Positions 15,406 to 48,204 of a stretch of DNA of 64,000 nucleotides are shown in pieces; position 1 is the first letter of the stretch, and every line of letters begins with the position of its first letter. A program made the position numbers and the translations under genes. The notes beneath the pieces were generated by a model that was not told the origin of the DNA, searched no databases, and was given only the letters and a program-made list of their open reading frames with translations. This DNA is from Somniosus microcephalus (lineage: Eukaryota), in NCBI GenBank assembly GCA_052327205.1, contig CM126227.1:51398001-51462000 (forward strand), given 5' to 3'.

Positions 15406-15550
15406 TGAGAATTTCTCGTACAGCTGGTAGGTTAGCAGTGGGTTGGGTAACTCTCTGAAGTAGAGCTTGCACAGCGACCCAACACAATGGATATCCTGGA
15501 GGTAGAGATCCTTCGTTAACTCAGGGATCTGCTCAGAGTCAAACTCATGC
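15406..15550 (-). CDS. ARHGAP32: ARHGAP32 coding exon (HEFDSEQIPELTKDLYLQDIHCVGSLCKLYFRELPNPLLTYQLYEKFS)
   Basis: Acceptor tttgtAG 15552-15551, donor GTGAG 15405; 145 nt; CG|G=Arg junction; KLYFRELPNPLL RhoGAP motif. Confidence 0.95.
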
Positions 15551-17039: not shown

Positions 17040-18242
17040 ATGCCGAAGAGTGGCAGTATCACAGCGTTCGACAATGAAGTCGAAGATTGGACGACATATG
17101 TCGAACGCATAGAAGTATACTGCAAGGCGAATGAAGTGCCAGATGACAAGAAAGCGCTGGTATTGTTGAATTCAATGGGTGCAAAAACGTATGGCTTACT
17201 ACGAAACCTAGTAACCCCAGAGAAGCCAGTAGAAAAGGATTTTGAAAACATGGACCACTTAAACCCCACACCGCTGCTGATAGCAGAAAGATTTAAGTTT
17301 CACAAAAGGAACCAGCATAAAGATGAAAGTAATGCTGAGTATTTAACGGAACTGCGCAAGCTATCGAAACACTGCCAGTTTGGAACGGGACTAGCAGATA
17401 CCTTAAGGGACAAGTTTGTGTGTGGGCTTCAAAGTGAAGGAACCCAGAAACGGCTTTTATCTGAAAAGGACCTTACGCTGGAAAAGGCTTTCAGCATTGC
17501 GGTATCATATGAAGCAGCAGCACGGGGCGCTGCAGAGATACAACAGAGACCGCAAGAATATGGCACAAACGAAATGTCATATGGAACAGAGAAGTGCTAT
17601 AGCTGCGGCAGAACAACACACGACCAGAATGATTGCTGGTTCAAAGACAAAGTGTGCAGACAGTGTGGAAAAGTAGGACACATAGCACGAGTCTGCAGGT
17701 CGGGAAAGAAAACCAGCAATAAGAAACCGACCAAAGGAAAGTACAAGAAGGTACATAAGATAACGGAGAATAGTTCAGACGAACAAAAGAGTGATAACGA
17801 CTCCGAAAGCAGGGAACTGAGTTGTCTGAAACTACATAATGTGATCACAACAGAGGATCACCGAACCATTTGGGTCACTCTCAAGGTAGCAGGAGTCCAG
17901 GTAAAGATGGAATTGGACACAGGATCAGCCCTAACAGTCATAAACCGACGGGACTATGAGCGGCTATTCTCACACATACCCTTGAGAGACACAAAAATTA
18001 TTTTGAAGACGTACACGGGGCAAAAAGTCTACCCCAAAGGAAAAATAAGGGTGACCGTTATATATAACGGTAAGGAAACACCAAAACTAGACCTGTATGT
18101 ATTGCAAGATGGAGGACCACCATTACTGGGACGTGAAGGGATCCGGAAAATACAACTGGATTGGCATTCCATACAGGCACTGACTGTGGCTGACAAAAAG
18201 GATGACGACGTCACACCTGGGCGACTGTCAGATCCTAACTGA
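17040..18242 (+). CDS. gypsy Gag with two CCHC zinc knuckles plus aspartic protease
   Basis: CYSCGRTTHDQNDC and CRQCGKVGHIARVC knuckles; LDTGS protease motif; stops at a frameshift before RT. Confidence 0.9.
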   Translation: MPKSGSITAFDNEVEDWTTYVERIEVYCKANEVPDDKKALVLLNSMGAKTYGLLRNLVTPEKPVEKDFENMDHLNPTPLLIAERFKFHKRNQHKDESNAEYLTELRKLSKHCQFGTGLADTLRDKFVCGLQSEGTQKRLLSEKDLTLEKAFSIAVSYEAAARGAAEIQQRPQEYGTNEMSYGTEKCYSCGRTTHDQNDCWFKDKVCRQCGKVGHIARVCRSGKKTSNKKPTKGKYKKVHKITENSSDEQKSDNDSESRELSCLKLHNVITTEDHRTIWVTLKVAGVQVKMELDTGSALTVINRRDYERLFSHIPLRDTKIILKTYTGQKVYPKGKIRVTVIYNGKETPKLDLYVLQDGGPPLLGREGIRKIQLDWHSIQALTVADKKDDDVTPGRLSDPN

Positions 18243-20970
18243 CGCGAAAGAAGTGTTCCAGCAAGGACTCGGAACACTAAAAGGCATGACAGCGATGATT
18301 AAAATTGAAAAAAACGCAAGCCCAAAATGTTTTAAGGCCAGACCTTATGCGACCCGCCCAGCCGTCGAAGCAGAGCTGGAGAGTCTGGAACGTTCAGGTG
18401 TACTGTCCAAGGTAGACTGGAGCGAGTGGGCTACACCCATTGTCCCTGTGATGAAAAAGTCGTTGAGCAGCACGCCTGGGGAACCAAGGAAGGTTCGCAT
18501 CTGTGGGGGCTTTAAGGTAACAGTGAACCCGGTCCTTCACGCCGTACAATATCCACTTCCGCGGATTGAAGATATTTTCGCCTCGCTATCTGGAGGGAAA
18601 CGCTTCACTAAGATTGATCTGGCCCAGGCGTATCTGCAAATGGAGGTAGAAGAAGCATCAAAAAAATACCTCACAATCAACACCCATAAAGGTCTCTACC
18701 AATACAACCGGCTGGTATTCGGGGTAGCATCAGCTCCGGCTATTTGGCAGAGGGCAATGGAACAAGTCCTGCAAGGGATCCCAGGGACCCAGTGTTATTT
18801 GGACGACATCCTGGTCACGGGCGAAAATGACAGTGATCACCTTGCCAACCTGGAGCAGGTGCTCACTAGATTGCAGGAATATGGGCTCCGAGCTAACCGC
18901 CCCAAATGCAAGTTTTTTAGAAAACAGATCTCGTATTGTGGCCACGTTATCGATAAAGAGGGGCTACATAAGTCCCCAGAGAAGATTGAGGCAGTAGTCA
19001 AGGCTCCAGCACCGGAAAATGTGTCACAACTGAGGTCGTTCCTCGGGCTGGTAAACTACTACCATAAGTTCTTGCCAAATTTGTCTACAATACTACACCC
19101 ACTGAACACCCTACTGCAAACTGGGGTGCCATGGAAGTGGAGTGACGAATGTAGACGAGCTTTCCAGAAGAGCAAAACACTAATCACATCGAAAGAGGTA
19201 TTGGCCCATTACAACCCAGCATTACCAATTCGGTTGGCATGTGATGCGTCACCCTACGGCATTGGAGCGGTGCTGTCGCACAAATTCTCGGACGGCTCAG
19301 AGAGGCCAATAGCCTTTGCGTCACGATCACTAACCTCAGCCGAGCGTAACTACGCCCAGATTGACAGGGAGGCCCTCAGCCTAGTGTGGGGAGTGAAAAA
19401 GTTCAATCACTATCTGCACGGGCAGAAATTCACCTTGCTGACTGATCACCAGCCTCTTGTCTCCATTTTTAATCCAAAGAAGGGCGTTCCGGTGATGACT
19501 GCGCAACGACTACAAAGATGGTCACTTTTTCTAGGGGCACACTACTATGAGATTGAATATAAGGGCACGAAACAGCATGGAAATGCTGATGGGCTATCAC
19601 GCCTGCCACTGCCTACTGCGGAGGAAGCACCAGCAGCGGATCCTGTCGAAATATTCCATTCGACTATAGTTGAATACCTATCGGTAACTAACGCTTGTAT
19701 CAAAAAGGAAACCCGAAATGACCCGACACTGTCTCGGGTATATGATTTGACGGTGAAGGGATGGCCAGCACATGGCAACTCACTGTTGCCAGCATTCTCG
19801 ACAAGGAGAGAACAGCTGTCAGTGTGCCGGGGGACCTTGATGTGTGGATCCCGAGTGGTAATTCCACCCAAGTTAAGGGATAGAGTGCTCAATGAGCTTC
19901 ATGAGGGTCATCTGGGAGGAGTAAAAATGAAAAGCCTAGCCAGGGCTTATGTGTGGTGGCCGGGAATCGATAAACAAATCGAGGACCTGACCAAGAGCTG
20001 CTCAGGATGCCAGAAAGTCCAAAGCGCACCACCACAGGCCCCTCTACACCCATGGGAGTGGCCCTCATCTCCATGGCAACGGGTGCATATTGATTTTGCT
20101 GGTCCATTCATGGACTCAATATTTTTAATAGCCGTGGATGCGCACTCGAAATGGCCTGAGGTCATCAAAATGTCCTCCACCACCACGGAGAAAACTATTG
20201 CAGTCCTACGGACCATTTTTGCCAGGAATGGCTTGCCAGAACAGATTTGCTCCGATAACGGGCCACAGTTTGTGTCCGAAAAGTTCCGGAGGTTCTTGAA
20301 AAAGAATGGGGTAAGGCATTACACATCCGCCCCGTATCATCCAGCCACAAATGGATTGGCTGAGAGGTTCGTACAAACCTTTAAGAAGGCAATAAAGGCT
20401 ATGTACAATGACAACATTCCGCTGCAGCACAAGGTGGACAATTTCCTGTTCGCCTACTGGAATGCGACACATGCAGTCACCAACCAGGCCCCAGCCATGA
20501 TGTTCTTTAACCGAAGGTTAAGATCTCGCCTGGATTTGCTCAGACCAAACGTACGAAGAGATGTTGAGAGTAAGCAATTCCAGCACATCCATGAGAAGCC
20601 AACAAGGAGCTTCAATGTAGGGCAACCAGTCTTGGCCCGCGACTACCGAACAGAAAAATGGCAGCCAGGAACGATATGCACACGGCAGGGCCCACTAATG
20701 TACACAGTGGACGTTGGGGAGAGCATCGTGAGACGCCATGCTGACCAGATCCTAGAGTCACAAGAACAAGTCAACCCCATGCCTCGCCCATACGTACCTG
20801 GTGATGAACCCGACGTACAGGTAGCATCTACCCCAGAAACAGTAGCATCGGAAGCTGATGAACCAACCGACGACAGGGGGCCAGAATCGCCTCCGCACCA
20901 AGAGCAAGACACTCGGGAAAGGCGCTATCCAGAAAGGATCAGGAAGCCTCCCCAAAGACTGAATTTATAA
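18229..20970 (+). CDS. gypsy Pol: reverse transcriptase, RNase H, integrase (frameshifted from gag-PR)
   Basis: YLDD, CDASPYGIG, HEGH...CSGC zinc finger, HIDFAGP / SDNGPQF / NGLAER DDE integrase motifs. Confidence 0.93.
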   Translation, partial: QILTDAKEVFQQGLGTLKGMTAMIKIEKNASPKCFKARPYATRPAVEAELESLERSGVLSKVDWSEWATPIVPVMKKSLSSTPGEPRKVRICGGFKVTVNPVLHAVQYPLPRIEDIFASLSGGKRFTKIDLAQAYLQMEVEEASKKYLTINTHKGLYQYNRLVFGVASAPAIWQRAMEQVLQGIPGTQCYLDDILVTGENDSDHLANLEQVLTRLQEYGLRANRPKCKFFRKQISYCGHVIDKEGLHKSPEKIEAVVKAPAPENVSQLRSFLGLVNYYHKFLPNLSTILHPLNTLLQTGVPWKWSDECRRAFQKSKTLITSKEVLAHYNPALPIRLACDASPYGIGAVLSHKFSDGSERPIAFASRSLTSAERNYAQIDREALSLVWGVKKFNHYLHGQKFTLLTDHQPLVSIFNPKKGVPVMTAQRLQRWSLFLGAHYYEIEYKGTKQHGNADGLSRLPLPTAEEAPAADPVEIFHSTIVEYLSVTNACIKKETRNDPTLSRVYDLTVKGWPAHGNSLLPAFSTRREQLSVCRGTLMCGSRVVIPPKLRDRVLNELHEGHLGGVKMKSLARAYVWWPGIDKQIEDLTKSCSGCQKVQSAPPQAPLHPWEWPSSPWQRVHIDFAGPFMDSIFLIAVDAHSKWPEVIKMSSTTTEKTIAVLRTIFARNGLPEQICSDNGPQFVSEKFRRFLKKNGVRHYTSAPYHPATNGLAERFVQTFKKAIKAMYNDNIPLQHKVDNFLFAYWNATHAVTNQAPAMMFFNRRLRSRLDLLRPNVRRDVESKQFQHIHEKPTRSFNVGQPVLARDYRTEKWQPGTICTRQGPLMYTVDVGESIVRRHADQILESQEQVNPMPRPYVPGDEPDVQVASTPETVASEADEPTDDRGPESPPHQEQDTRERRYPERIRKPPQRLNL

Positions 20971-21409
20971 ATAGACTATTTTCAGCTAATGTTGCATGTT
21001 AAAAGTGTTAATTGTAATTAGTTTGATATTTAATTGTTAAATGAGTGTTATGGTACTGTTAATCTAAAAGGGGAGGAATTGTAATGTATGTACCTTTAAG
21101 GGGAGGAACTACTTTTTACAGCTCATGTATACTGTAGTACCGGCAGTGACCACACCTGTATATAACGTTGAGTAGTAATCTGTACAGATCAGTTGCAGTC
21201 TGAGCCACGTTGAGTAAACACCGTTTGTACCGTTCTCCGCAGTCTGTGTCTGATTATACACGGACGTAACAAAGCCCAGTCTGTGCAACCTGTCCTCATA
21301 ATTTAAACCCTTTTAGCCCCAGTATCATTCTGGTGAATCTGAGTTGTACCCCCCTCCCAGGCCGATATATCCTTCCTGAGGTGCGGTACCCAGGCTGAAC
21401 ACAGTGCGC

Positions 21410-24159: not shown

Positions 24160-24970
24160 AGGAATCTGTACCCCAATGAGAGTCAGTGTCTGTGGAACCT
24201 GTATCCCAGTGAGAGTCAGTGTCTGTGGAACCCATACCCCGGTGAGAGTCAGTGTCCGTGGAGCCTGTAGCCCAGTGGGAGTCAGTGTGTGTGGAACCTG
24301 TACCCTAATAAGAGTCAGTGTCTGTGGAACCTGTACCCCAGTGAGAGTCAGTGTCTGTGGAACATGTACCCCAGTGAGAGTCAGTGTCTGTGGAACATGT
24401 ACCCCAGTGAGAGTCAGTGTCTGTGGAACATGTACCCCAGTGAGAGTCAGTGTCTGTGGAACCTGTACCCCAGTGAGAGTCAGTGTCTGTGGAACCTGTA
24501 TCCCAATGACAGTCAGTGTCTGTGGAACCTGTACCCCAGGGAGAGTCAGTGTCTGTGTAACTGTACCCCAGGAAGAGTCAGTGTCTGTGGAACTGTACCC
24601 CAGTGAGAGTCAGTGTCTGTGGAACCCGTACCACAGTGAGAGTCAGTGTCTGTGGAACTGTACCCCAGTGAGAGTCAGTGTCTGTGGAACTGTACCCCAG
24701 TGAGAGTCAGTGTCTGTGTAACTGCACCCCAGTGAGAGTCAGTGTCTGTGGAGCTGCACCCCAGTGAGAGTCAGTGTCTGTGGAACTGTACCCCAGTGAG
24801 AGTCAGTGTCTGTGAAACTGTACCCCAGTGAGAGTCAGTGTCTGTGGAACTGTACCCCAGTGAGAGTCAGTGTCTGTGGAACTGTACCCCAGTGAGAGTC
24901 AGTGTCTGTGGAACTGTACCCCAGTGAGAGTCAGTGTCTGTGGAACTGTACCCCAGTGAGAGTCAGTGTC
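24160..24970. repeat. 33/32-bp minisatellite (GGAAC[C]TGTACCCCAGTGAGAGTCAGTGTCTGT)n
   Basis: Tandem periodicity; 33-bp units on the left, 32-bp units on the right. Confidence 0.96.
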
Positions 24971-26441
24971 TTCAGGAAAGGAGGGAAGGAAATAATTGGC
25001 AAAAACAGAAAATTAAATCTGACTTCAGATGCCCAACTGAAAACACCAGCATGGTACCAGTTATAGTGACCATTAAGGATGCACCACACAGCACCTGTAG
25101 GCATTACAGTAACAGCACTCAAAAGGGAGTACTTGGTCACAAGCGAGTGTTAAAGGGAGCAGTTCAATCCCTCGGTCAGGTTTGTCGCGATACTAGATCA
25201 CTACACTGTAAACAAAGCATCAGTCAGGCCAGTTGATTGGACAGTCTACACACCCAATCAAATTGCCAGAATCAAAATTCCAGACATTGATTTGGCTAAT
25301 CTGAATCTATAAATTTAGTTTAAAGGTTACAGAGTATTTAGAATAAATTGGCCGTTAAGACTGGGAGTTCTCATCAACTCCAGTTCATAAGAGGTTGACT
25401 CCAGGTCTTGTTGTCTATCATACAGGTTCCTAAGCTGGGTGCGGTGCGGTGCGGGGCGGGGCGGAGCGGGGAGGCTATCGGGGGGTGGTGAGGACACCAG
25501 CTGTAACTCACTGACAGGAATTGCCTGCAATACCTATTCTCTCCAGTGGTGGCATTTCCGGCACACTAAGAGCAGTGAAGCAGGAGCAGATCCGAGGAAT
25601 TTTCCGGCCCGTGAGTTCTCATGATAGGATTGGGCTTCATATTAAAACCCATTAGTATAAAGGAGCAGAATTAAAATAGCTAAAGTGACAAAATTGAAGT
25701 ATTCTGGGTTACCCGCTATACCTAAACTAACACTGAATACAAAAACACTTTCTTAGAAAGAAGGGGGTGCGTGTGGGGCATGAAACTTCAAAGAAGGGCT
25801 CAGCAAAAAATAAAGTTTGGGATCCCCTGGTCTATGGGGTTTCTCAGCTAAACTCCAGCCTATTACTTGTGCTTTCACTTTGTTTATGCTCCTCCCTCAA
25901 TCTGCTGACAGAAAGCCAAACGTTAACACCGTGCAAACTCTGAGAATGCTGGGCACGGTTCAGCTGGTTAATGGAAACAAACCTGTGACTGAAGAACGTT
26001 TGGAACAGTCTCTGTCATAGAACTACACAGAATACAGAACGTGGACGGCAACACCGTCACACAGACCAACAAAATCCAATTTGGTTCTCTGGCCTATGGG
26101 CTGAGATCCCCAATAATAATAATAATAATAATAATCAACTTTATTGTCATTGTTAGTGCACAAGTGCAGTACAACGAAATGTAGGCTTGCGGCTCCCGAG
26201 AGTGTACATTTAGATTAAGACACTTAAACATTCAACATACATTTGGCTTGTAATACATTAACATAAACATAAACATAATAAAGTGCATTGGCAGATGTGC
26301 AGGCTTTAGAGTTTATTTGTGGAGTTCAGCAGGATGACAGCCCTGGGAAAGTAGCTGTTCCTAAATCTGGTCGTTCGGGTGCGAATGCATCTGCAGCGTC
26401 TCCCAGATGGCAGGAGGGTGAACAGACTGTGGCTGGGGTGG

Positions 26442-29400
26442 TGATGCGCTATCAATTACTCATAAAAGACTGAGAGTTAAGAGAGTAACTAAAGGCTTTT
26501 ATTAACAAAAGAATGAAGGTCTGCCTCGAGTGGTCGACCGGTCCAGAAATACAAAGGGCTGGGGAGCAGTCACCTTTATACTAGGACTTGTGGGAGGAGT
26601 CAGCCGAGGCATGTCCAGGCATGTACACAGTGGAATACAAACAGTGGTTTACCACATTCACCCCTTGTTTAAAATTGAGTCCGGCGGGGTGAAGTGTATT
26701 AAAAGTTAGTGTATTGGAGTCTCTCCGGAGGTCTTGTCTGCCGCTGTGATCAGCGTGGCGACGGCAGGGGTAGTGGAGCTTCCGGCGTCGAGTCCTGCGT
26801 AGGCTGTGGCACAGGCGTGTCGTCCTCGTAGATGTCGAGCGGGTCGCGGGGCCCAGGCCTGCCGTCTGCTGGGGCTGGATATCGGATCGTTGGGGGGGGT
26901 GGTAGTGAGTAGTGGGTTACTGCGGCCCCCGAGGGTGCAAGGTCTCTTATGGAGACTGTGTCCTCCCGCCCGTCCGGGTATGCAATGTAAGCATACTGGG
27001 GGTTGGCGTGGAGGAGGTCGACCCTCTCGACCAGGGGGTCCGTTTTATGGGTCCTCACGTGTCTTCTCAGTAGGTCCGGCCCTGGGGACGTCAGCCATGG
27101 CGGTAGCGATGTCCCCGATGTGGACTTCCTTGGGAAGACAAACATTTTCTCATGAGGGGTGGCGTTAGTGGCAGTGCAGAGCAGTGACCGAATAGAGTGG
27201 AGCGCATCGGGGAGCACATCCTGCCAGCGGGAGGTTGGAAGGCCCCTAGACTTTAAGGCTAGCAGGGCGGCCTTCCAAACTGTCGCATTTTCTCTTTCCA
27301 CCTGTCCGTTCCCCCGGGGGTTGTAACTGGTGGTCCTGCTTGTGGCAATACCCCTAGTTAGCAGGTACTGACGGAGTTCGTCGCTCATAAACGATGAGCC
27401 CCGGTCGCTATGGATATAGCTGGGGAAACCGAACAGGGTGAAGAGGTCGTTCAGACATTTAATGACCGTGGCACTGGTCATGTCCGGGCAGGGGATGGCG
27501 AACGGGAAACGGGAGTACTCATCAATAATATTGAGGAAGTACACATTGCGGTCGGAGCAGGGGAGAGGCCCTTTAAAATCAACGCTCAGGCGCTCGAAGG
27601 GGCGAGTGGCTTTTATCAGGTGGGCCCTGTCTGGTCTATAAAAGTGCGGTTTGCACTCAGCGCAGACTTGGCAGTTCCTGGTCATGGTCCTGACCTCCTC
27701 AATAGAGTAAGGCAGGTTGCGGGCCTTGATGAAGTGGAAGAACCTGGTGACCCCCGGGTGGCAGAGGTCATTGTGGAGGGCCCGCAGTCTATCGATCTGT
27801 GCGCTGGCGCAGGTGCCACGCGATAGCGCATCCGGGGGTTCATTGAGCTTCCCGGGCCGGTACAAGATCTCGTAATTGTAGGTGGAAAGTTCGATTCTCC
27901 ACCTCAAGATCTTGTCATTTTTGATTTTGCCCCTCTGCTTGTTGTTAAACATGAAAGCAACTGAACGCTGGTCAGTGAGCAGGGTAAATCGTTTTCCGGC
28001 CAGGTAGTGCCTCCAATGACGCACAGCCTCCACAATCGCCTGGGCCTCCTTCTCAACAGCGGAGTGTCTGGTCTCCGGGCCTTGGAGGGTTCGTGGAAAG
28101 AAGGCCACGGGTCTCCCCGCCTGATTGAGGGTAGCGGCCAGGGCAAAGTCGGACGCGTCGCTTTCCACCTGGAAGGGGATGGATTCGTCCACTGCGTGCA
28201 TGGTGGCTTTGGCAATGTCCTCCTCGATACGGTGGAAGGCTAAGCGGGCCTCTGCCGTCAAGGGAAAAGAGGTGGACTTGATCAGCGGACGGGCCTTGTC
28301 CGCATAGTAGGGGACCCACTGGGCGTAATAGGAGAAAAACCCTAGGCACCTCTTCAGGGCCTTGAGGCAGTGGGAGTTCCATAAGGGGACGCATCCGGTC
28401 GGGGTCGGGGCCGATGACTCCGTGTTCCACAACACAGCCAAGGATGGCGAGGCGGTTTGTGCGGAATATGCACTTCTCCTTGTTATATGTCAGGTTCAGG
28501 AGTTGGGCGGTGCGGAGGAATTTTTCGAGGTTTGCGTCATGGTCCTGCAAGTCACGGCCGCAGATGGTCACATTGTCCAGATATGGGAAAGTGGCCTGCA
28601 ACGCATTTTGATCTACCATCCGGTCCATCTCCCTTTGGAAGACGGAGACCCCGTTGGTGACGCCAAAGGGAACCCTAAGGAAGTGATAGAGGCGGCCGTT
28701 TGCCTCAAAGGCGGTATACTGGCGGTCCTCAGGGCGGATAGGGAGCTGGTGGTACGCTGATTTCAGGTCAATGGTCGAGAAGACGCGGTACTGCGCGATC
28801 TGGTTGACCATATCAGCTATGCGGGGGAGTGGGTAGGCGTCCAGCAGGGTGTAGCGATTTATTGTCTGGCTGTAGTCGATGACCAGGCGCTGCTTCTCGC
28901 CGGTCTTAACGACCACAACCTGGGCTCGCCAGGGGCTGGTGCTGCCCTCAATAATCCCTTCCTTCAGGAGCCGCTCCACTTCGGTTTTAATGAAAACCCT
29001 GTCCCCGGCACTGTATCGCCTGCTCTTTGTGGCGATGGGCTTACAGTCGGGGGTGAGGTTAGCAAACAGTGGGGGGGGGGGTGACTCTGAGTGTGGAGAG
29101 GTTGCACCTGGTGCGCGGCGGGCAATTTGGAAGCTGCTGGCTGCGGACTGTGAGTGGGGGTAGGGGTCCACCGTACGCCATCGTAACACTTTTAAGGTGG
29201 CACTGAAAATCTAACCCCAGCAGGACGGCAGCGCAGAGGTCGGGCAGGACCAGAAGTTTAAAATGATCGTACACAGTCCCGTCTACTACGAGTGTCACCA
29301 CGCAGTAGCCGCCGATGTCCGCCGACTGGGACTCGGAGGCCATAGAAATCCGCTGGTGCGCAGGCAGGACTGGGAGAGAGCAACGCCGCACCGTGTCGGG

Positions 29401-30750
29401 GTGGATGAAGCTCTCCGTGCTCCCAGAGTCAAAAAGGCAGATTGTATCGTGACCATTTACCTTAATGTCCATTGTGGAACTGGCCAGCTGGTGCGGTCTC
29501 GCTTGGTCTAGTGTAACGGATGCCAGCGTAGGGGTCGGTGTGTCGCTGCGGGTATCAGATGAGGCGGTGTTGGGGGCCTGCTGCGTTCCGGCTGTCATCC
29601 AAGATGGTGGCGTCCATGATCCCCATGTGGCTGGAGGCGTCCAAAATGGCTGCTGTACCGGTGGTTCGCACATGGCCGGGGAGGCCCAAGATGGCGGCCC
29701 GCATGGCCCACACGCGGCGCTGCTGGGGTTCGGGGTGGCTTTGGCCCTGCAGACGCTAGCGTAGTGTCCCTTCTTCCCGCAGCCCGAGCAGATCGCGTTT
29801 TTCGCCGGGCAGCGCGCTCTGGGGTGTTTTGCCTGGCCACAGAAGTAGCATTTCTGGCCTTGGGGCACTGCTGTCTGGCCTTGGGACACTGCTGCGGTAG
29901 TTGGGCCGTTGCTGGGGTGGCACGGCGCTATGAGGCGGTCCTACCGTGTCCCAGGCTGTCATTCCCCGCGGCGTCCACGGTGCAGAGGAGTAGGCATCCA
30001 TGCCCCGGTAGGCTGCATCCAATGATAGTGCGAGTTCAGAGGCCTTGTTGAGGTCGAGGTCACTCTGCTCCAACAGTCGCTGTCGGGTGTAATTGGATCT
30101 GTGGCCCGCTACAAAAGCGTCCCGGAAACGTTCCTCTGTGTACACGGCGGCCTTTACATCCTTACAACCACAGGCCCGGCCAAGCACAGACAGTGCCTGA
30201 AGGTATTCCACGGTCGATTCCCCAGGTTGTTGTTTACGACTCCCCAGAAGGTGCCTGGCGTACACTTCGTTCACTGGGCGCGTGTACTGGTCCTTGAGGA
30301 GCTTGATAGCGTCCGCGTACGAGGTCGCGTCTTGGATGACCGAGTACACTCGGTGGTTCACTTTGGAGGTCAGGACATCCAGTTTGTCCTCGTCCGATTT
30401 GATTGCTGCGGAGGCGGTCAGGAATTTTTCGAAACACTTAAGCCAGTGAGTAAACTTGGTGGATGAGTCCGCCTCCCGATGATCTAAGTCCAGGCATGCT
30501 GGTGTGAGGATCTTCTCCATTATAAAAATTTTGTTAATAAAATTGATGCGCTATCAATTACTCATAAAAGACTGAGAGTTAAGAGAGTAACTAAAGGCTT
30601 TTATTAACAAAAGAATGAAGGTCTGCCTCGAGTGGTCGACCGGTCCAGAAATACAAAGGGCTGGGGAGCAGTCACCTTTATACTAGGACTTGTGGGAGGA
30701 GTCAGCCGAGGCATGTCCAGGCATGTACACAGTGGAATACAAACAGTGGT
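26442..30750 (-). mobile_element. Ty3/gypsy LTR retrotransposon; 3' LTR 26442-26656, 5' LTR 30544-30750 (outer 6 nt missing)
   Basis: LTRs appear identical over 207 bp; 3' LTR is TGTGG...CATCA; PPT AAACAAGGGGTGAA 26670-26657; TATAAA and AATAAA in the LTR; gag-PR-RT-RH-IN on minus. Confidence 0.96.
26750..30520 (-). pseudogene. gypsy gag-pol broken by three frameshifts (about 29890-29945, 29071-29081 and 28370)
   Basis: ORFs 29756..30520 (gag), 29059..29889 (two CCHC knuckles, FDSGS protease), 28053..29189 (RT, YLDN), 26750..28441 (RNase H SDASD, HNDLCH..CQVC, SVDFKGP/SDRGSSF/NGQVER integrase). Confidence 0.9.
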
Positions 30751-32427
30751 CGTTCGGGTGCGAATGCATCTGTAGCGTCTCCCAGATGGCAGGAGGGCGA
30801 ACAGACTGTGGCTGGGGTGGGTAGGGTCTTTGATGATGGACCGTGACCTCCGTAAACAGCGTTTCTGGTATATGTGCTCTATGGTCGGTAGCCGGGTGCC
30901 GGTAATGCGTTGGGCAGTTTTGACTACCCGCTGCAGGGCTTTCCGGTCATAGGAGCTACAGCTGCCATACCATACTGTGATACAGTTCGTCAGGATGCTC
31001 TCTATTGTGCAGCGGTAAAAGTTAGAGAGGATCAGGGGTGACAGGTTACATCCCTTCAGCCTCCTTAGGAAATATAGGCGCTGCTGGGCCTTCTTCACCA
31101 GAGAGGAGGTATTGAGGGACCAGGAGAGGTCTTCCGTGATGTGGACTCCGAGGAACTTAAAGCTGTCCACCCTTTCCACCACAGCCCCATTGGTGCCGAG
31201 CCAGTCAGAAAATAAAAAGACCCTACAATCATACAGATACAAAACTTATAGACATCAGGGCGACCGATTGGAAGTTATCGAGGTGGGTATACTGCCAGTG
31301 CTCAAAGTTCCTTAAGCCTGTGAGTAACAACAGGGTAATAATCTTTAAAAGTATGAAATTTATGCTGCTTTTCACTGCCTCAGTGAGGTGCTTGTTTGTA
31401 GCAGAACTTCTTTAGCAGATTTAACCAGATTTAGTGAATTGCCGAATATATATTGGTGTTGCCATTGCACATGCAAGATCCACTTGCCGGAAACAAGCAC
31501 CTCAAACTGCCCTCCAAGGCCAATGCAAACACAGCTATAACATCGCAACAAACCAGGGACAAAATTCAATTCCCAGCTGGGGTTAATTGTTCAATAAAAA
31601 GCTGTGTGGGCCTCAATACTACTGAACATTAGCAGCTGAACACAGTGCCAAAGGCAAATGATGGACTCTGATCAGCAGATCTTGAATAAGCAGTACAGCA
31701 GAGTAGCTGCATTGTCCCACGCCATGGGTTATAGTCACAACACTGACAGCAACGTACAATCTTCTTTCAATCAGCACTGTAAGCTTTTAAGGCAGAACCC
31801 TTTCAAGATCCTGGTAATGTATGCACTGCTGCAGGATTAAAGCTAGTCTGATCTGAATTGCCTGATGAACAGCCAGCCCAATAAAAGGAGGAGATGAGAG
31901 ACACTAAATCTGTCCATCTACAAAAACATGCGCTCTCAATATGGGATCTGAAAGGCTCATCTGATATCCATTTTCTCGCTCAGTAATGTTACTTTCATCT
32001 CCTTTGCTCAGATAAAAGCTGCTCACAGGAAGCTCAGCATCTTCTTTTATATAAAACATTGCTTTTCTCCTCAACAATTGTTCACCCTCTCTAAATCTCA
32101 GGTGTGCCCAAGGCTACCCCTATGTCAAGGAGGCTCTAACATCTCTCTCATGTTCCTGGACAATATACAAGAAAAAGCTTGCAGCAAATCTGTCTCCCAC
32201 CTGCAACCTCTCTGTTCCAACATTTCCTGCCAGATTTTATTGGCACTACTGTGTTGCTCTGAATTTGCTTCTCTTATTCTATTAATAATGTACTGTCAGG
32301 GCCAGGTGCACAATACTCCTAATAGCAACTAAATGAGGCATGCTTCACGACTATAACACCACCTGGTGGATCCCAAGAATGGAGTCAGAGCCACAGACCG
32401 TGACCAGCAAAAGCGACCAGCAATATA

Positions 32428-32769: not shown

Positions 32770-33480
32770 TATATGCTGCAACACTGAAAAGGGGAGGGTG
32801 ACACTCGGGGATAAGCGGCCTCCTCGAGCGTTGCTGTCCCGGATTCACAGCGAGAATATACAGAAGGCTTTAAGAGGAACCAGCACCTGGGCTCTTTGTG
32901 TTAGGACCCAAGGAGACCTTTCTGGTCTGAAGGATTTCCTTGTAGCAAATGAAATTCAAATGAGAGTTCTGCTACTGAGCTTGGAACAGACTTCACAGGT
33001 CTGGAAACTCATACAGGCCACTGTGGGCGTCTGGTACTGGGAAGGATCCATAAACATTATTGCAAGCGTTGAAACTGGGTGGCAGCACTGATCTGCCTGA
33101 GGCACCACAGGCCTCAACCAACTGATGCACAACACAGAGGAGCGCGGCACTGACAACTTTGCAAATCAAAACTCAATGAAACTGAAGTAAAAGCTAAATC
33201 CAACTTTACAGGAAAACAGACTAGCAGTACAAACAGATATATTAATCTTGACAGAGACCGAGGTGACTGAAATCCCAGTCTCATCCCTAAAAACAAGCTT
33301 TTAATTCATCCGGTCTAAGAGTAAAGACAAATAGCGAGCAGGGACCGTGTTTGTAGTTTCCCGGGCAGCAAATTCAACAGCGACACTCAGGTCAAAACGG
33401 ACTATGTAACTATTAATATATTAAAAACTAGCTGGAGTGCCCGGCGGTGCCGAGGCTTTTTCGAGGGCATGTTGTTGTTG

Positions 33481-33840
33481 GAAGAGAGAGAGAGAGTGAC
33501 TGGGGGGAAGAGAGAGAGCGACTGGGGGGAAGAGAGAGAGCGACTGGGGGGAAGAGAGAGAGCGACTGGGGGGAAGAGAGAGAGCGACTGGGGGAAGAGA
33601 GAGAGCGACTGGGGGGAAGAGAGAGGGCGGGGAGGGAGAGGGCGGGGAGGGGGAGCGTGGGGAGGGGGGGAGGGGGAGGGGAGGGAGGGCGGGGGGGAGG
33701 GTAGGGGGGAGGGCGGGGGGAGGAGGGCGGGGAGGGGGGAGGGGAGGGGGGAGGGGAGGGCGGGGGGGAGGGAGGAGGGCGGGGAGGAGGGCGGGGAGGG
33801 AGGAGGGGGGGGGGAGAGAGACAGAGGGAAGGGGAGAGAG
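33481..33840 (+). repeat. 22-bp repeat (GACTGGGGGGAAGAGAGAGAGC)n followed by a G-rich purine tract
   Basis: Direct reading; lies within the Helitron. Confidence 0.9.
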
Positions 33841-33844
33841 AGGG

Positions 33845-34800
33845 CGAGTGGCCCGCGGCCGCAAATGGAGCCAAGCCCCGAGAACAGGCGTGAGCCGGCT
33901 TGAGGCTGAGAGATGGCCACGCCCGGTTGCTGGGGTAACCCATCCCCCCCTTCCGAGCCCCCGTCCTCCCGAGCACCGGCCGCATCGCCCCGCCCCGCAC
34001 TCCACTCCCGAGAGCCCCGCTCTCCGAGCCCCACCCCGCCCCGCACTCCCGAGAGCCCCGCTCTCTGAGCCCCGCCCCCCCGGGCCAGCCGGCTTGAAGT
34101 CCGCCGATTGCGGCTGTGCGAGACGGCCGGCGGGCCCGGTTGCCGGGGTAACCCTTCCCGCTCACCAAGCCCCGGCCGAGATCCGCACTCCCGAGAGCCC
34201 CGCCCCCCCCCCCGCCCGAGCCGAGCGCGGAACAGAGAGAGACGCCGCGTCTCAGCTGCTCCTGCTGCGCGCGCACCCTGACCCTCGTGGCTGACGCCGT
34301 TGCCCCGGGTAACGTGACATGGGGGGGGGGGGGGAGGAGGAGCTTAGCAGAAGCCGTGGGAGAATTACCTAGGTCGGGCCTGGCTGGGCAAGAAACACCC
34401 AGGCTTTCAGGCCTAACAAAAACAGGGAAAGGTAGGAAAAGAATCTTCAGGTTAGAGAAAATATTTACAAATGAATGAAGTTTTTTTTAAAAACAATTTA
34501 ATAAATTCAATTTTATTTTGCTGGAAATGTATATTTGAAAAGAAAGACGCAGAAAGCAGGAAAAAGAATGGAAGCAAGATGGCGGCTACTCACCTCGGTT
34601 CAGAACGATAAGACCTCGAGGTCACTCTGTCGCCAATGAGCGGATAATGAGATGCTAATGAGCGGAATGTTGAAGGTTTTTCGGATACCGCGGGCGCGAT
34701 TTTTGCCCGGCCGAAACGTAAATACGCTTAAGACCGTTTTGGAAAGGTAAGCTTTCTTTCGACGTAACGCACGCGTAGGTACGCTCTATAACTTTCGAGC
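33845..34800. promoter_or_regulatory. CpG-rich promoter-like cargo inside the Helitron
   Basis: High CpG density; X-boxes 33926-33939, 34139-34152, 34299-34313; YY1 CAAGATGGCGGC 34575-34586; CCAAT near 34633; donors at 34593 (-) and 34747 (+). Function not shown. Confidence 0.55.
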
Positions 34801-35129
34801 GCATACCAGACAGACGCACACATGATGACAGACAGACAGAAGGACAGACAGACAGAAGGACAGACAGAAGGACAGACAGAAGGACAGACAGATCTACCGA
34901 TTTATATATATAGATTAAAGAACAGATGTCAGGTTCCAGATGAGGCCTTTACCAACTGCAGGGAAAGGGAACAGCACCTGACCAAAGATACACACTATAC
35001 GGCAGCAAACCGTGATCACTTGTGGTGGTGGCAGCTCTACACCGGGTCCAAACCATCAGCTGCCACTTGCAGCCCATTTACCACAAGCACCTGGAGGCTG
35101 AGGAACTTTTGGCACAATAATAATTCTAC

Positions 35130-38719: not shown

Positions 38720-39386
38720 AGGGGACCAGCTGCCCAGACGGTGGCCCACCCGTCTCCCTGGGGACCTGCTGCCCAGACGGTGGCCCACCCGTCTCCCTGG
38801 GGACCTGCTGCCCAGACGGTGGCCCGCCCGTCTCCCTGGGACCTGCTTCCCAGGCGGTGGCCCACCCGTCTCCCTGGGGACCTGCTGCCCAGACAGTGGC
38901 CCACCCATCTCCCTGGGGACCTGCTGCCCAGACAGTGGCCCATCAGTCTCCCTGGGGACCTGCTGCCCAGACAGTGGCCCACCCGTCTCCCTGGGGACCT
39001 GCTGCCCAGACAGTGGCCCACCCATCTCCCTGGGGGCCTGCTGCCCAGACAGTGGCCCACCCATCTCCCTGGGGGCCTGTTGCCCAGACAGTGGCCCACC
39101 CGTCTCCCTGGGGGCCTGCTGCCCAGACAGTGGCCCATCAGTCTCCCTGGGGACCTGCTGCCCAGACAGTGGCCCACCCGTCTCCCTGGGGGCCTGCTGC
39201 CCAGACAGTGGCCCACCCGTCTCCCTGGGGGCCTGCTGCCCAGACAGTGGCCCACCCGTCTCCCTGGGGACCTGCTGCCCAGACAGTGGCCCATCAGTCT
39301 CCCTGGGGACCTGCTGCCCAGACAGTGGCCCACCCGTCTCCCTGGGGGCCTGCTGCCCAGACGGTGGCCCACCCGTCTCCCTGGGG
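38720..39386. repeat. 39-bp minisatellite (GGGACCTGCTGCCCAGACAGTGGCCCACCCGTCTCCCTG)n, about 17 copies
   Basis: 13-aa periodic ORFs in several frames. Confidence 0.96.
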
Positions 39387-39631
39387 ACCGTGGAGACTAT
39401 CCATCTCTGACCAGTGCTGCTTCACAGTGGAGCAACTGAGCTCACTCTCCTATTGAAAGGAGCTGGAATGCTGATACTCCAGCATTCTGTGCCAATGTGC
39501 CCTCCTTCCTTTCACATACTGCTTATGCCTCCAGTTGGCAATTGATGACCATTAAAGAGATTTAACAGGAAGATGTTGGGTGAAATCAGCTGTCATGGCA
39601 AACCCTCCATTCTTCTACTGTAGCAGCTTAC

Positions 39632-39734
39632 CGTAGCTTCTGAATATTGGATGCAATTCCCGAAAGTCGGTAGATGCCGTCCACAACTCCATGTCTCTCA
39701 ATAAAATCCGTGCAGCTTTTGAGTACCTGGGGGA
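39632..39734 (-). CDS. ARHGAP32: ARHGAP32 coding exon (VPQVLKSCTDFIERHGVVDGIYRLSGIASNIQKLR) with the RhoGAP arginine finger
   Basis: Acceptor cttcAG 39736-39735, donor GTAAG 39631; 103 nt; joins previous exon G|TC=Val; GIYRLSG catalytic motif. Confidence 0.95.
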
Positions 39735-43566: not shown

Positions 43567-44879
43567 AGTTTCTACTAGAGTTTCTCTCATAAGCGATTGA
43601 AAAGAATTTGGACTTTTTTTGTTTTGAAACAGTTTATTGCACTTCTCGTACTTTCCTGCTTCTTAGTGCATCTGTGTATTCTATTTGTAAATGAATCTAT
43701 TAGTTTAGCTTTCACACTTTGGTTTGATGGTCTGATTTTTTTCCAATTACCCATTTAATGTGATATCGGCCACTAGAGATCACACAGGATGCCCATTCAC
43801 CATACTTGAAAGAATAAAGAACATGTTGGGCAATCCATGTGATCTCCAGTGACTGATATCACATTGAAAGGTTAATTGGCAATCCTGGACACACTACCTC
43901 AGACAAGGCATGGATTAGGGCACAGACTTTGGTTCATAGAAGATTGAAATTCTGATCAATCTGAGGAACCCTTTGTCCCTGTTCAGTCCTTTTTGAATGG
44001 ATGCATCCTGTTTCCATGTTGTCCTCCTCACTTGCAGATTCCAAAATTTGTTTTTTTGCTGTGGTGGAACAAAGCCCAACTGTAACAGCCCAGTTTGTGC
44101 CTGACTGAGTCAGTGGGTGGGGAGGGCTGGGATTGACTTCAGTGCCCCAGACTAGCAAGGAGGAAAATGAATTTAGCCTGGATTCCCACTGCCATTCACT
44201 GTTGGATGGGAACAGAACGGGGTTCAGCTATAATGTTCCCCACACTTGAACAGCCTACCAACATTCAGCAAGTTCATTCCTGAAGGCTGCCCACGTGGCT
44301 GGGGTACTCGAGTCACGCTTTCAGGCAACGAGGGATTAAAGTCAGGGAAAAATCTACCAGCTGGAAAAACTTCAGGGGAATCGCTGCGTGTGGGAGCAGT
44401 CACTTTAACTTTCTGCTCTGTACAAATTCCTGACAGCCATCAAATATGACCTTTTCAAACCCTTTCTAATCAGTACATGGAATTTACCAAGCAGCCTATG
44501 AGATGCCTTTCTAATGAGCACTGAGCTTCCAATTACTCGACCCCACTGAGAGCAGCAACCCCCAACAGGGCATCATTTAACGAACCTGTATCAGCATGCA
44601 ATCCAGCATCAATGTCTGCAACGCTGACCATCCAGTCGCTCCATACTCAGCAGTTGCAGTTGACCGGAGATGGCAGCTCCTTCACCTCTCACTGCCTCTC
44701 TCTTTCACACACTGTACTGAACCATGATTGTACTGTTACATCAATTCCACTTATCATTTCTCTCTGTGTTTTTTGACATTCCATGCTCCCATCTTCTGAT
44801 ACGAATAAGGCATATCCACACCTGAAACATAAACTTGTCTGTTCTATCCCCAGATTCTCACTGACCTGCCGGGTGCCTC

Positions 44880-46120
44880 CTATAGGACCCCCCCATCCAC
44901 AGGCCTTCCTCCTACAGGCCCCCCCTCCTACAGGCCCCCCCCCTTACAGGCCCCCCCCCCCTACAGGCCCCCCCCCCTCCTACAGGCCCCTCTCCTACAG
45001 GCCTCCCTCTCCTACAGGCCCCCCTCCTACAGGCCCCCCTCTCCTACAGGCCCCCCTCCTACAGGCCCCCCCCCTCCTACAGGCCCCCACTCCTACAGGC
45101 CCCCCCTCCACAGGCCCTCCCTCTACAGGTCCCCCTCCTACAGGCGCCCCCCTCCTACAGGCCCCCCCCCTCCTACAGGCCCCCCCCCCCTACAGGCCCC
45201 CCTCCTACAGGCCCCCCCTCCTACAGGCCCCCCTCCTACAGGCGCCCCACTCCTACAGGCCCCCCCCTCCACAGGCCCTCCCTCCACAGGCCCCCCCTCC
45301 TACAGGCGCCCCCCTCCTACAGGCCCCCCTCCTACAGGCCCCCCCTCCACAGGCCCTCCCTCCACAGGCCCCCCCTCCTACAGGCGCCCCCCTCCTACAG
45401 GCCCCCCTCCTACAGGCCCCCCCTCCTACAGGCCCCCCTCCTACAGGCCCCCCCCTCCTACAGGCCCCTCTCCTACAGGCCTCCCCCTCCTACAGGCCCC
45501 CCTCCTACAGGCCCCCCCCTCCTACAGGCCCCCCCTCCTACAGGCCCCCCTCCTACAGGCCCCCCTCCTACAGGCCCCACTCCTACAGGCCCCCCCTCCA
45601 CAGGCCCTCCCTCTACAGGTCCCCCTCCTACAGGCGCCCCCCTCCTACAGGCCCCCCCCTCCTACAGGCCCCCCCTCCTACAGGCCCCCCTCCTACAGGC
45701 CCCCCTCCTACAGGCCCCCCCTCCTACAGGCCCCCCCTCCTACAGGCGCCCCCCCTCCTACAGGCCCCCCTCCTACAGGCGCCCCACTCCTACAGGCCCC
45801 CCCTCTACAGGCCCCCCCTCCTACAGGCGCCCCCTCCTACAGGCGCCCCCCTCCTACAGGCCCCCCTCCTACAGCCCCCCCTCCTACAGGCCCCCCCCTA
45901 CAGGCGCCCCCTCCTACAGGCGCCCCCCTCCTACAGGCCCCCCTCCTACAGCCCCCCCTCCTACAGGCCCCCCCTCCTACAGGCCCCCCTCCTACAGCCC
46001 CCCCTCCTACAGGCCCCCCCTCCTCCAGGCCCCCCCTCCTACAGGCCCCCCCTCCACAGGCCCTCCCTCTACAGGCCCCCCTCCTACAGGCCCCCCCTCC
46101 TACAGGCCCCCACCCTACAG
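44880..46120. repeat. C-rich minisatellite, about 15-18 bp unit (CCTACAGGCCCCCCCT)n
   Basis: Tandem periodicity; source of the Pro-rich ORF 44783..46318. Confidence 0.96.
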
Positions 46121-48204
46121 CCCACCCCAACTTCACCGCCCTGCCTGTGTCACTATCCTACTAGAAGGTATGTGTGCACAGGGGAGAGGGGGGTCAACAC
46201 CTCCCAGTTCAGACACAGATCATTACAGGTCACTGAAGAGCTCCATCCCATCCCACCACCCCACAAACTGACAATGTTGAATTCTGTAAGGAAGATTCAC
46301 AAACACTGGCTCAGGTAAATGGTTCACTTTAGTGATGGGTCCAATCCCTGGGAGGAATAATTAAAAAAATTAGGAGTAAGAAGGGAAGTCAGGGGAAACA
46401 TTTTATCCAAAGGGTAATCGAGTTATGGAATAAGTTTCAAGAGAAGCCCATTGAAGTGGAGAATCTATAAATGAGATCAAGAGACAACTGAACATACTTC
46501 TGGAGCAATAAGGAGCTGAGGACCATGGTGACGAGGTGGGATGGTGGGGTTAATCTATGAACGTGGGGCAGGCTTACTGAGCCTAATAACACTTTCCTGC
46601 TCCTAAAAACTCTTCTGTTCTTAAGTCAACAGTCAGAGGCCTGGGGCACACATACTGGGTTAATTAAAGCAGCCTCTGCAAACTCTGACAATCACAAGTG
46701 GGGAACCAGTGGGCTCCGTTGTTTCTGCAATGAGAAGGACAACACGGAACCAAGATTCATCCATTCAAAATGGACTGATGGGAACAAAGGGTTCCTCAGA
46801 TACATCAGAATTTAAATCAGATAGCAGTACCAGCAGAGGCTCCCTGCACTCCGGGGGCCTGGTGTTCCTTCCCATGAACACTGTATCGCTACACTATTTT
46901 CCGGTGCTGATTTTATCCATTGAAGCAGCAACGCCCCAGTCCCGACTGCAAGTGCCCTCACTCCATGTACACAGCACGCAGGGTAACCAATGGGGAGCCA
47001 ATCGGAGCAGATTCCAATTTGAACCAGAGTTACAGTCGTGATGGCATGGGTCTGGATTTGCTCTCATTTTATAGGATGCATCATGGCAATGAGCATTGTT
47101 TGAGCATATTTTACTCTGAAACAGCTTTGATCAGAGTCAATTTCATTCAGTTATAAAGGCTGGTTTACAAGTCATTAAAATCACCATTTTAGTTCACAGG
47201 GATCATTCAGAAGCCACATTTGGTGAGGATCAGTTTGACTTTACTCACCTGTTTGCGGTAAGGAAGGGTGTTACCTCTGGAGTCTGAGAATGCTGCATTC
47301 CTCCAGCTCTGGCCACTTCCTTCGCCCCACCATTGGTAGCCGTGCCTTCAGCTGTCTAGGCCCCAAGTTTTGGAGTTCCCTTCCTAAACCTCGCTGGCTC
47401 TCCTCATCTCTCTCCTCCTTTAAGACGCTCCTTAAAACCTAACTCTTTGACCAAGCTTTTGGTCACCTGTCCTAATATCTCCTTCTTTGCCTATTTTAAT
47501 CTGAAAACACTCCTGTGAAGAGCCTTGGGATGTTTTACGACGTTAATTTCCCTTCTCCCTCGTGTATGCATCAAGCCTCCCCTCCAAATCAGTGCTCTCT
47601 GCTTCGACCACTCCATGTGGCAGGGAGTTCCACATTCTCACACCACTCTCTGTGTAAAGAAATTCCTCCTAAATTCTTTATTTGATCGGTTCGTGGCTTT
47701 CTTCTATTTATGTCCCCTTGTTTTGGTCTTACCCACAAGTGGAAACAGTTTCCCCACATCCACCCTTTCATCTTTCGATATTTGCAAAACACAGCGCTGC
47801 TAGAGTGGCAGTAAATCGACACATTTAGTACCATAACACATCAGGTGGCACAGCCAAATAAAGAGAAAGCTAAAAGGGTATGGGAAAGGGCAGACTCAGC
47901 ACAGCGTGAGGGCCCAAGAGGCCTCCTCCAGTGTGCAAAATTCAACCATTCTCCATTATCCACATAAGATGAGCTAAAGACCATTTGGCCCAACTATTCT
48001 ATGCCAATGTTTATACTCAATCTTATGCGGACAGTGGAGAATCGTTGGATTTTACACACAGGAGGAGGCCTGTGCTGAGTCTGAAAGAATTCTCCACTTA
48101 ATCCCACTCCCATGCCCCTTCCCCATGCCCTTTTAACTTTCCAATACACAGGAGATGCATTTAACAGGTGAAATAAATCAACATGGGCAGCAGGTAGGTT
48201 TTCA

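What the first reader, a model, noticed from the sequence alone, without database searches (positions are those of the whole stretch)
33428..34914. Non-autonomous Helitron carrying a CpG-island, promoter-like cassette inside an ARHGAP32 intron
Seen: what looks like an orphan intronic CpG island is bounded by complete Helitron ends on the minus strand. The 5' end is A|TCTATATATATAAA plus a microsatellite at 34914. The 3' end is a GC hairpin ending 11 nt before the terminus, then CTAG|T at 33428. The insertion is at A|T with no TSD, and there is no transposase. The cargo is a mosaic of a purine/G tract, a CpG-dense block, an AT-rich spacer and a second CpG block, with CpGs retained against a CpG-depleted background. 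Established: Helitrons capture host DNA, and promoter or first-exon capture is documented in vespertilionid bats. Inference: a young chondrichthyan Helitron family that may disperse a captured promoter and create internal or antisense transcription starts.
Basis: partly seen in the sequence, partly recalled or inferred. Interest (0 to 1): 0.8.

Follow-up and report, generated by a model that had tools for sequence, protein, structure and literature searches.

The report
Shark Helitron carrying a promoter-like cassette
A 1.5 kb rolling-circle transposon in an intron of a shark gene carries what looks like the start of a gene (promoter motifs and splice sites). This may be its own promoter rather than one taken from the host, and either way it is a known kind of element.

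Summary
33428-34914 (minus strand) has canonical Helitron1 ends: A|TC, a TA-rich start, a CTGT-type microsatellite, and a hairpin 11 nt before CTAG|T. Such an end pair arose in 1 of 300 shuffled windows. No transposase domain was found. The host is a shark-like ARHGAP32, and the element lies sense to it.

The interior is more ordered than a mosaic. It reads as a co-oriented 5' gene end: CpG-rich leader, strong donor with a YY1 motif, 181-nt intron (the 'AT spacer'), 44-nt exon, CpG block with three RFX X-boxes, then six tandem acceptors.

Capture is unproven. An autonomous frog Helitron (Heli1Xen1) has an X-box and reported Rfx2/Foxj1 ChIP signal at its own 5' end, so a native promoter left by internal deletion is at least as likely (about 0.45 versus 0.35). 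CpG retention is no evidence of activity: two young Gypsy elements in the same intron keep CpG equally (observed/expected 0.76-0.77 versus 0.79).

Copy number, parent locus, empty site and expression could not be tested. Verdict: new member of a known kind, modest interest.

The parts
33428..34914 (-). Non-autonomous Helitron1 (HLE1), 1487 nt, inserted A|T, same strand as the host gene
34893..34914 (-). 5' terminus: TC followed by a TA-rich run
   Evidence: a TATATAAA left-end pattern is described for Heli1Xen1 (PMC12001565)
34827..34892 (-). CTGT-type microsatellite just inside the 5' end
   Evidence: a (CTGT)n repeat near the 5' end is described in insect Hel-2 (PMC4344730 passages)
34594..34826 (-). 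CpG block 2 (GC 0.50, CpG o/e 1.63): inferred core promoter and non-coding exon 1; no ATG in 34730-34594
   Evidence: transcription start not determined
34413..34593 (-). Predicted intron 1, 181 nt (the 'AT-rich spacer'): donor at 34593, YY1 motif at 34576-34586, branch-like CTAAC near 34452, pyrimidine tract, AG at 34413
   Evidence: donor rank 5 of 4442 GT sites and acceptor rank 8 of 3947 AG sites on the minus strand (hand-made matrix); YY1 motif; sequence
34369..34412 (-). Predicted 44-nt exon 2, no ATG, donor at 34368
   Evidence: donor rank 82 of 4442
33847..34320 (.). CpG block 1 (GC 0.74, o/e 0.91): three RFX X-boxes at 33926-33939, 34139-34152 and 34299-34313, four GC boxes, internal ~210-nt and 41-nt duplications
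33630..33846 (-). Low-complexity C-rich tract (G/purine-rich on the plus strand)
33487..33629 (-). 22-nt minisatellite, 6.5 copies; each unit is a pyrimidine run ending in CAG, giving six acceptor-like sites (33608 to 33499)
33428..33486 (-). 3' terminal segment: ATG at 33470, hairpin at about 33456-33439, 11 nt, then CTAG
39632..39734 (-). Host ARHGAP32 exon upstream of the insertion (start of RhoGAP domain; phase-2 donor)
15406..15550 (-). Host ARHGAP32 exon downstream of the insertion

Best explanation
It is a young non-autonomous Helitron1, copied into an AT-rich A|T site by a RepHel transposase encoded elsewhere. The 5' TC end starts rolling-circle copying and the 3' hairpin/CTAG ends it (established mechanism, not tested here). 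Its interior is the 5' end of a polymerase II transcription unit pointing the same way as the element: leader exon, intron, 44-nt exon, RFX/GC-box CpG block, acceptors. Most likely this is the autonomous partner's own promoter and spliced 5' UTR, left when the RepHel reading frame was deleted (inferred). At this locus it is most likely a passenger, CpG-rich because it is young. If it is used at all, it would act as a sense-strand alternative start or as an exon trap for ARHGAP32. Component odds: Helitron1 about 0.92; co-oriented 5' gene end about 0.7; native more likely than captured only narrowly.
For: Ends and their low chance rate. The donor-acceptor-donor arrangement scored above all 1000 local shuffles and ranked 1 of 502 window segments, with real host exons ranking 3rd and 4th. 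All 3 strict X-box matches in 64 kb lie in block 1 (expected 0.05 and 0.03); 0 of 5000 dinucleotide shuffles of block 1 gave one. Sites 2 and 3 fit the published consensus exactly (PMC5752003 passage). The predicted leader exons have no ATG, and the first ATG after the acceptor array is at 33470. Precedent for a native promoter: the autonomous Heli1Xen1 sequence has an X-box in its 5' region (supplement Fig. S3 text), and the paper lists rfx2, foxj1, foxn4, myb, ep300 and beta-catenin ChIP enrichment there. Autonomous elements commonly have kilobases between the left end and the Rep domain (75% under 5275 nt; PMC11417382 section 6). No coding homologue of the cargo was found in three protein searches; a calibration showed the two block-1 searches would detect ungapped translated copies at 10-20% DNA divergence. 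Young Gypsy neighbours keep CpG equally.
Against: No autonomous partner was available to align, so native origin is by analogy only. I read no description of a spliced 5' UTR in a vertebrate Helitron. Capture of promoters and 5' gene ends in the same orientation is the documented bias (PMC4224331; PMC12001565). A strong plus-strand donor at 34747 (rank 3 on that strand) and another at 34432 (rank 16) fit a divergent host promoter. The splice matrix was hand-made from recalled frequencies and the test was designed after seeing the sequence; non-genic segments also score high (31.2 versus 31.9). An AG at 34444 lies between the branch-like motif and the main acceptor. Two of the three X-boxes sit in one internal duplication and are not independent; a looser X-box pattern also gave 3 strand-hits outside the element. 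Strict NF-Y, NRF1, E2F and ETS patterns gave 0 hits in the element. The ATG at 33470 may simply lie in the conserved 3' end. Block 1 shows no TpG/CpA excess (0.89 versus 1.11-1.18 in the Gypsy elements), which would fit an unmethylated source.
Confidence: 0.45

Rival explanations
1. Capture: a Helitron picked up a host gene's promoter, first two non-coding exons and CpG island (an RFX-regulated, perhaps bidirectional, promoter) and amplified it, like HelibatN3 with NUBPL.
For: Block 1 looks like a vertebrate CpG-island promoter (GC 0.74, X-boxes, 4 of the window's 5 GC boxes). There is a divergent plus-strand donor at 34747. Bat Helitrons captured promoters from 15 genes and amplified them to 4,690 copies, and HelibatN3 carries promoter plus splice donor. 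In Xenopus 17 of 19 captured fragments are 5' ends.
Against: No parent was found; protein searches were empty, though they cannot see non-coding parents. The same motif class occurs natively in an autonomous Helitron. Block 2 (GC 0.50, o/e 1.63) is unlike a typical vertebrate island and adjoins the left end directly (inference).
Confidence: 0.35
2. A Helitron whose interior is a patchwork of simple and tandem repeats and CpG-rich filler; the splice and promoter motifs are chance or by-products and it never worked as a promoter.
For: About 430 of 1487 nt are simple or tandem repeats. The acceptor array follows automatically from a CT-rich unit. Minisatellite-rich non-autonomous Helitrons are known. 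Several promoter motifs were absent.
Against: X-box enrichment and the ordered donor-intron-exon-donor structure are hard to get by chance.
Confidence: 0.13
3. An old single-copy intronic promoter or enhancer of ARHGAP32 with Helitron-like ends by coincidence.
For: Only one copy in the window; splice signals are sense to the host.
Against: End pair in 1 of 300 shuffles, plus the microsatellite and A|T junction. None of 50 named ARHGAP32 proteins has element-derived peptide, and none of the complete models starts at the exon after the insertion (the source species is not among them).
Confidence: 0.07

Closest known systems
Heli1Xen1 (vertebrate Helitron1; Li and Pollet 2025, PMC12001565; read abstract, Results parts 1-2, Discussion part 1, passages, and part 1 of supplement 5)
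   Same: TC and TA-rich left end, hairpin plus CTAG right end; an RFX X-box in a CpG-rich 5' region; non-autonomous copies of up to about 2 kb.
   Different: Different hairpin sequence; no shark host listed in the parts read; no splice structure described in its 5' region; one full X-box seen by eye versus three here. No alignment was made.
HelibatN3 / HelibatN211 of vesper bats (PMC4778049, PMC4224331; abstracts and passages, plus section 18 of the latter)
   Same: Non-autonomous Helitron1 holding a promoter-like region and a splice donor in element orientation, able in principle to start truncated host transcripts from an intron.
   Different: In bats the single-copy parent (NUBPL, SRPK1), copy number and chimeric transcripts are shown. 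Here none is. Here there are two predicted exons and an acceptor array, and no captured coding piece was found.
Chondrichthyan HLE1: Repbase Helitron-1/2_AmRa, Helitron-1_CM, and HELIANO calls (PMC11417382, supplementary table rows)
   Same: Same class in the same animal group: HLE1 in 4 of 8 chondrichthyan genomes (Leucoraja 11154, Mobula 4818, Hypanus 1651, Carcharodon 1).
   Different: Three of the four sharks sampled (Scyliorhinus, Hemiscyllium, Stegostoma) have no HLE1 row, so shark families are little described. Their sequences could not be compared; four short motifs of this element were absent from that supplement.
Insect Hel-2 non-autonomous Helitron (PMC4344730, passages)
   Same: TC/CTAG ends, 3' stem-loop, (CTGT)n microsatellite near the 5' end.
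   Different: Much shorter (250-nt consensus), with subterminal inverted repeats, and no vertebrate-type CpG block.

Membership tests
Helitron1 (HLE1) | 5' terminus TC | tested here: met
   34914, minus strand; definition in PMC2997563 passage
Helitron1 (HLE1) | 3' terminus CTRR | tested here: met
   CTAG ending at 33428
Helitron1 (HLE1) | 16-20 nt palindrome shortly before the 3' end | tested here: met
   18-nt hairpin, 11 nt before the end, -6.7 kcal/mol; modest alone, 9 of 200 shuffles as good
Helitron1 (HLE1) | Insertion between A and T with no target duplication | tested here: met
   junction bases read directly; empty site not available
Helitron1 (HLE1) | Several copies with identical ends and unrelated flanks | not testable with these tools
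   one copy in the window; no shark genome collection available
Helitron1 (HLE1) | Ends shared with an autonomous RepHel element | not testable with these tools
   no RepHel query could be obtained from the window; none in 41 long ORFs scanned
Autonomous Helitron | Rep and Pif1-helicase coding capacity | tested here: not met
   no such Pfam domain in element frames; 1487 nt is too short
Helitron2 / Helentron (HLE2) | 12-16 nt terminal inverted repeats and T|T insertion | tested here: not met
   insertion is A|T; the last 60 nt hold no complement of the first 15; no terminal pair among the 25 of 93 inverted repeats displayed
HelibatN3-type promoter-capturing Helitron | Promoter-like region plus splice donor in element orientation | tested here: met
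   motif level only
HelibatN3-type promoter-capturing Helitron | Cargo homologous to a single-copy host gene 5' end | tested here: inconclusive
   translated frames found nothing; these searches cannot see non-coding parents; DNA search not possible
HelibatN3-type promoter-capturing Helitron | Drives chimeric host transcripts | not testable with these tools
   no RNA data; no element peptide in 50 named ARHGAP32 proteins of other species
CpG island | At least 200 nt, GC over 50%, CpG o/e over 0.6 (criteria recalled) | tested here: met
   block 1: 474 nt, 0.74, 0.91; block 2 borderline on GC
CpG island | Unmethylated in the germline | tested here: inconclusive
   indirect only: 2 of 5 and 4 of 28 mismatches between internal repeats are CpG-type transitions, and there is no TpG/CpA excess in block 1

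The most novel reading that the evidence does not exclude
A shark Helitron family spreads a ready-made, RFX-driven, spliced promoter cassette, so that copies become alternative starts active in ciliated and germ cells. With Heli1Xen1 this would mean vertebrate Helitrons repeatedly use RFX X-boxes to be expressed in the germline. At this locus the exon-1 donor matches the phase of the next ARHGAP32 exon, so the copy could start a transcript that skips the exon carrying the RhoGAP catalytic motif and encodes a GAP-dead C-terminal isoform.
Probability: 0.12. Interest if true: 0.65.

Novelty: new member of a known kind. Interest (0 to 1): 0.36.

Why it matters
Non-autonomous Helitrons with promoter-like interiors are known, and HLE1 elements are recorded in skates, rays and a chimaera, so the class is not new. 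Two things would add value. First, Helitrons in true sharks are thinly described (no HLE1 row for 3 of 4 sharks in the HELIANO table). Second, three X-boxes here and one in Heli1Xen1 raise a testable idea: vertebrate Helitrons carry RFX-type promoters that seed cilia/testis-type start sites. One search for transposable element + RFX + X-box + promoter + helitron (4 of 5 terms) listed 5 papers, and only the Xenopus paper looked relevant from the listing. That library lacks most subscription journals. The case also shows that an orphan intronic CpG island can be a young transposon's own 5' region.

Tried and rejected
Second copy in the window: none; BLAST of the element gave only internal repeats and one 17-mer. 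Paralogous empty site: the flanking repeats begin more than 200 nt from the junctions, so none could be built. Copies or parent through translated frames: phmmer of one block-1 frame against 1.84 billion representatives gave 0 hits. A profile of three other block-1 frames gave none at E<=1 among 8000 candidates, 57-289 aa only (the plus frame had weak power). A 54-residue block-2 frame had no candidates (not calibrated). These negatives say nothing about DNA copy number. Rfam: 0 matches in the window. ARHGAP33 as host: my initial suspicion; dropped because the named top hits were ARHGAP32 or ARHGAP32-like, apart from one multi-stretch hit labelled ARHGAP30 and some hypothetical proteins. No tree was built. 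piggyBac (TTAA precedes the 5' end): rejected, since the 3' flank is not TTAA and no inverted ends were seen. CpG retention as evidence of promoter activity: rejected by the Gypsy controls. NF-Y, NRF1, E2F and ETS sites seen by eye: not matched by strict patterns. The ATG at 33470 as the RepHel start codon: possible but untestable, kept as a lead only. Literature: searches for helitron + shark and helitron/elasmobranch terms listed no paper on a shark Helitron family among the 30 titles shown in each; passages of PMC10468316 and PMC4350176 gave nothing specific. The Helraiser supplement and the Heli1Xen1 FASTA could not be read; they may bear on the native-promoter question. The prokaryotic, phage and plasmid collections were not searched because they cannot hold shark repeats. 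Metagenome and viral collections stayed unchecked.

Full report
Observation. On the minus strand the element begins TC at 34914 after an A, continues with a TA-rich run and a CTGT-type microsatellite (34827-34892), and ends CTAG at 33428 before a T. The last 40 nt fold into a hairpin followed by 11 free bases; alone it is modest (z -1.71, 9 of 200 shuffles). It is the only hairpin+CTRR|T end in the window. A matching end pair within 10 kb appeared in 1 of 300 shuffled windows with a strict 5' pattern, and at 0.15 pairs per window with a loose one; both patterns were post hoc. No Rep or helicase domain was found in the element's frames. There is no second copy in the window and no Rfam match.

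Host. Six exons of a RhoGAP gene lie on the minus strand. The exon after the insertion matches the solved RICS/ARHGAP32 domain and is identical to catshark, devil-ray and electric-ray ARHGAP32(-like) proteins. Over four exons the closest of 17 named proteins are Scyliorhinus (164/165) and Mustelus (163/165), ahead of batoids (159-160/165) (mis-framed fifth exon dropped). The source is therefore a shark-like elasmobranch; other shark orders were not in the comparison. The element sits in the 24 kb phase-2 intron between 39632 and 15550, sense to the gene.

Interior. Read in element orientation it is ordered. CpG block 2 (GC 0.50, o/e 1.63) ends in a donor at 34593 that ranks 5 of 4442, with a YY1 motif just inside the intron (the GCCAT core is given in PMC11602158 passages). 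The 'AT-rich spacer' is a 181-nt intron-like segment ending in an acceptor ranked 8 of 3947. A 44-nt exon and a second donor (rank 82) follow. This arrangement beat 1000 of 1000 local shuffles and ranked 1 of 502 segments, with true host exons 3rd and 4th. The matrix was hand-made from recalled frequencies, a non-genic segment scored almost as high, and an extra AG lies at 34444. CpG block 1 (GC 0.74, o/e 0.91) holds all three strict X-box matches of the window (expected 0.05 and 0.03) and 4 of its 5 GC boxes; 0 of 5000 shuffles of the block gave an X-box. Two of the X-boxes belong to one internal duplication, and a looser pattern gave 3 strand-hits elsewhere. Strict NF-Y, NRF1, E2F and ETS patterns were absent. 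A C-rich tract and a 22-nt minisatellite follow; the minisatellite gives six acceptor-like sites scoring 11.3-11.9, against 7.4-13.0 for four host acceptors. The first ATG after them is at 33470, 14 nt before the hairpin. Two good donors also exist on the plus strand (34747, 34432), so divergent transcription is not excluded.

CpG retention. It does not show promoter activity. Two Gypsy elements in the same intron, with LTR matches of 99.5% and 100%, have CpG o/e 0.76 and 0.77 against 0.79 for the element. One has its own 5' block with 31 CpG per 250 nt against 33 for block 1. Youth explains the contrast with the background. The methylation evidence is mixed: some differences between internal repeats are CpG-type transitions (2 of 5, 4 of 28), but block 1 has no TpG/CpA excess, unlike the Gypsy elements.

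Origin of the cassette. Capture has strong precedent: bat Helitrons took promoters from 15 genes, and HelibatN3 drives chimeric transcripts through its donor (PMC4224331 and PMC4778049 passages). Xenopus captures favour 5' ends in element orientation. A native origin has an equally direct precedent. The autonomous frog element Heli1Xen1 has an X-box in its 5' region (supplement text), and the paper lists rfx2, foxj1, foxn4, myb, ep300 and beta-catenin ChIP enrichment at that end. Autonomous elements often have kilobases before the Rep domain. A leader-intron-exon-intron-acceptor-ATG layout running from the left end is what an internal deletion of such an element would leave. Against this, I read no report of a spliced vertebrate Helitron leader. 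Three searches with translated frames found no parent or copy (power of the two block-1 searches checked), but non-coding DNA is largely invisible to them. I put native at about 0.45, capture at 0.35, motif by-product at 0.13 and a non-mobile host island at 0.07.

How it works. Shown: the ends, absence of coding domains, motifs and orientation. Established: RepHel acts in trans, the left end is required and the hairpin terminates copying (PMC4778049 passages). Inferred: the cassette is or was a promoter. If active here, exon 1 could splice in phase to the next host exon, bypassing the exon with the GIYR catalytic motif (role recalled). The leader has no ATG and an out-of-frame ATG opens that host exon, so protein output is doubtful. 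Alternatively host transcripts could include the 44-nt exon or use the acceptor array; both lead to early stops. None of 50 named ARHGAP32 proteins from other species contains element-derived peptide. The default is a neutral, probably silenced passenger.

Comparison and novelty. It meets every Helitron1 feature that could be tested and fails the Helitron2 and autonomous tests; copy number and partner were not testable. It works like HelibatN3 at motif level but cannot be filed as a promoter-capturing element without a parent locus. HLE1 elements are recorded in 4 of 8 chondrichthyan genomes, mostly batoids, and Repbase holds skate and chimaera families (PMC11417382 supplement rows). Paper searches listed no description of a shark family or of RFX sites as a general Helitron feature; the library lacks most subscription journals. 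Verdict: new member of a known kind, interest 0.36. The RFX-seeding reading has probability about 0.12 and would merit about 0.65.

Noticed in passing
window 16191-21271 (+): Young Gypsy LTR retrotransposon (protease, RT, RNase H, integrase; 192-nt LTRs 99.5% identical) with its own CpG-dense 5' block at about 16550-16950, a second 'orphan CpG island' in the same intron.
   Followed up: partly
window 26368-30820 (-): Second young Gypsy element. Its LTR match is 207 nt at 100%, the 5' LTR looks slightly clipped, and the element is flanked by an unusual 70-74 nt direct duplication (26368-26441 and 30747-30820, 97%) in place of a short target duplication. Unexplained.
   Followed up: partly
window 63308-63863: 556-nt near-perfect inverted repeat (90% self-complementary), possibly a foldback or MITE-like element; smaller palindromes at 43740-43882 and 47919-48071.
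   Followed up: no
window 2436-9813, 252-777, 12315-13475, 13796-14857, 24161-24971, 38721-39389, 44876-46128, 59295-60357: The ARHGAP32 introns are packed with strand-skewed minisatellites, the largest 7.4 kb of a 15-16 nt unit.
   Followed up: no
window 34747 and 34432 (+): Strong plus-strand splice donors inside the element (ranks 3 and 16 on that strand), and AATAAA signals on both strands of the AT-rich segment at about 34500-34517; compatible with divergent transcription or with chance.
   Followed up: partly
window 34727-33470 (-): If exon 1, exon 2 and the last acceptor (33499) are spliced, one frame stays open for about 70 codons and is in frame with the ATG at 33470; the other two frames have stops. 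No upstream ATG; may be chance.
   Followed up: partly
window 32040 (+): A second TC plus TA-rich start matching the strict Helitron 5' pattern, with no matching 3' end; 0.3 per window expected by chance.
   Followed up: no
window 48662-57217 and 30607-31245: Several decayed LINE fragments with RT domains, a GDSL-lipase-like frame at 52567-53037 and an ALKBH8_N-matching frame at 30607-31245, probably parts of non-LTR retrotransposons (assignment recalled).
   Followed up: no
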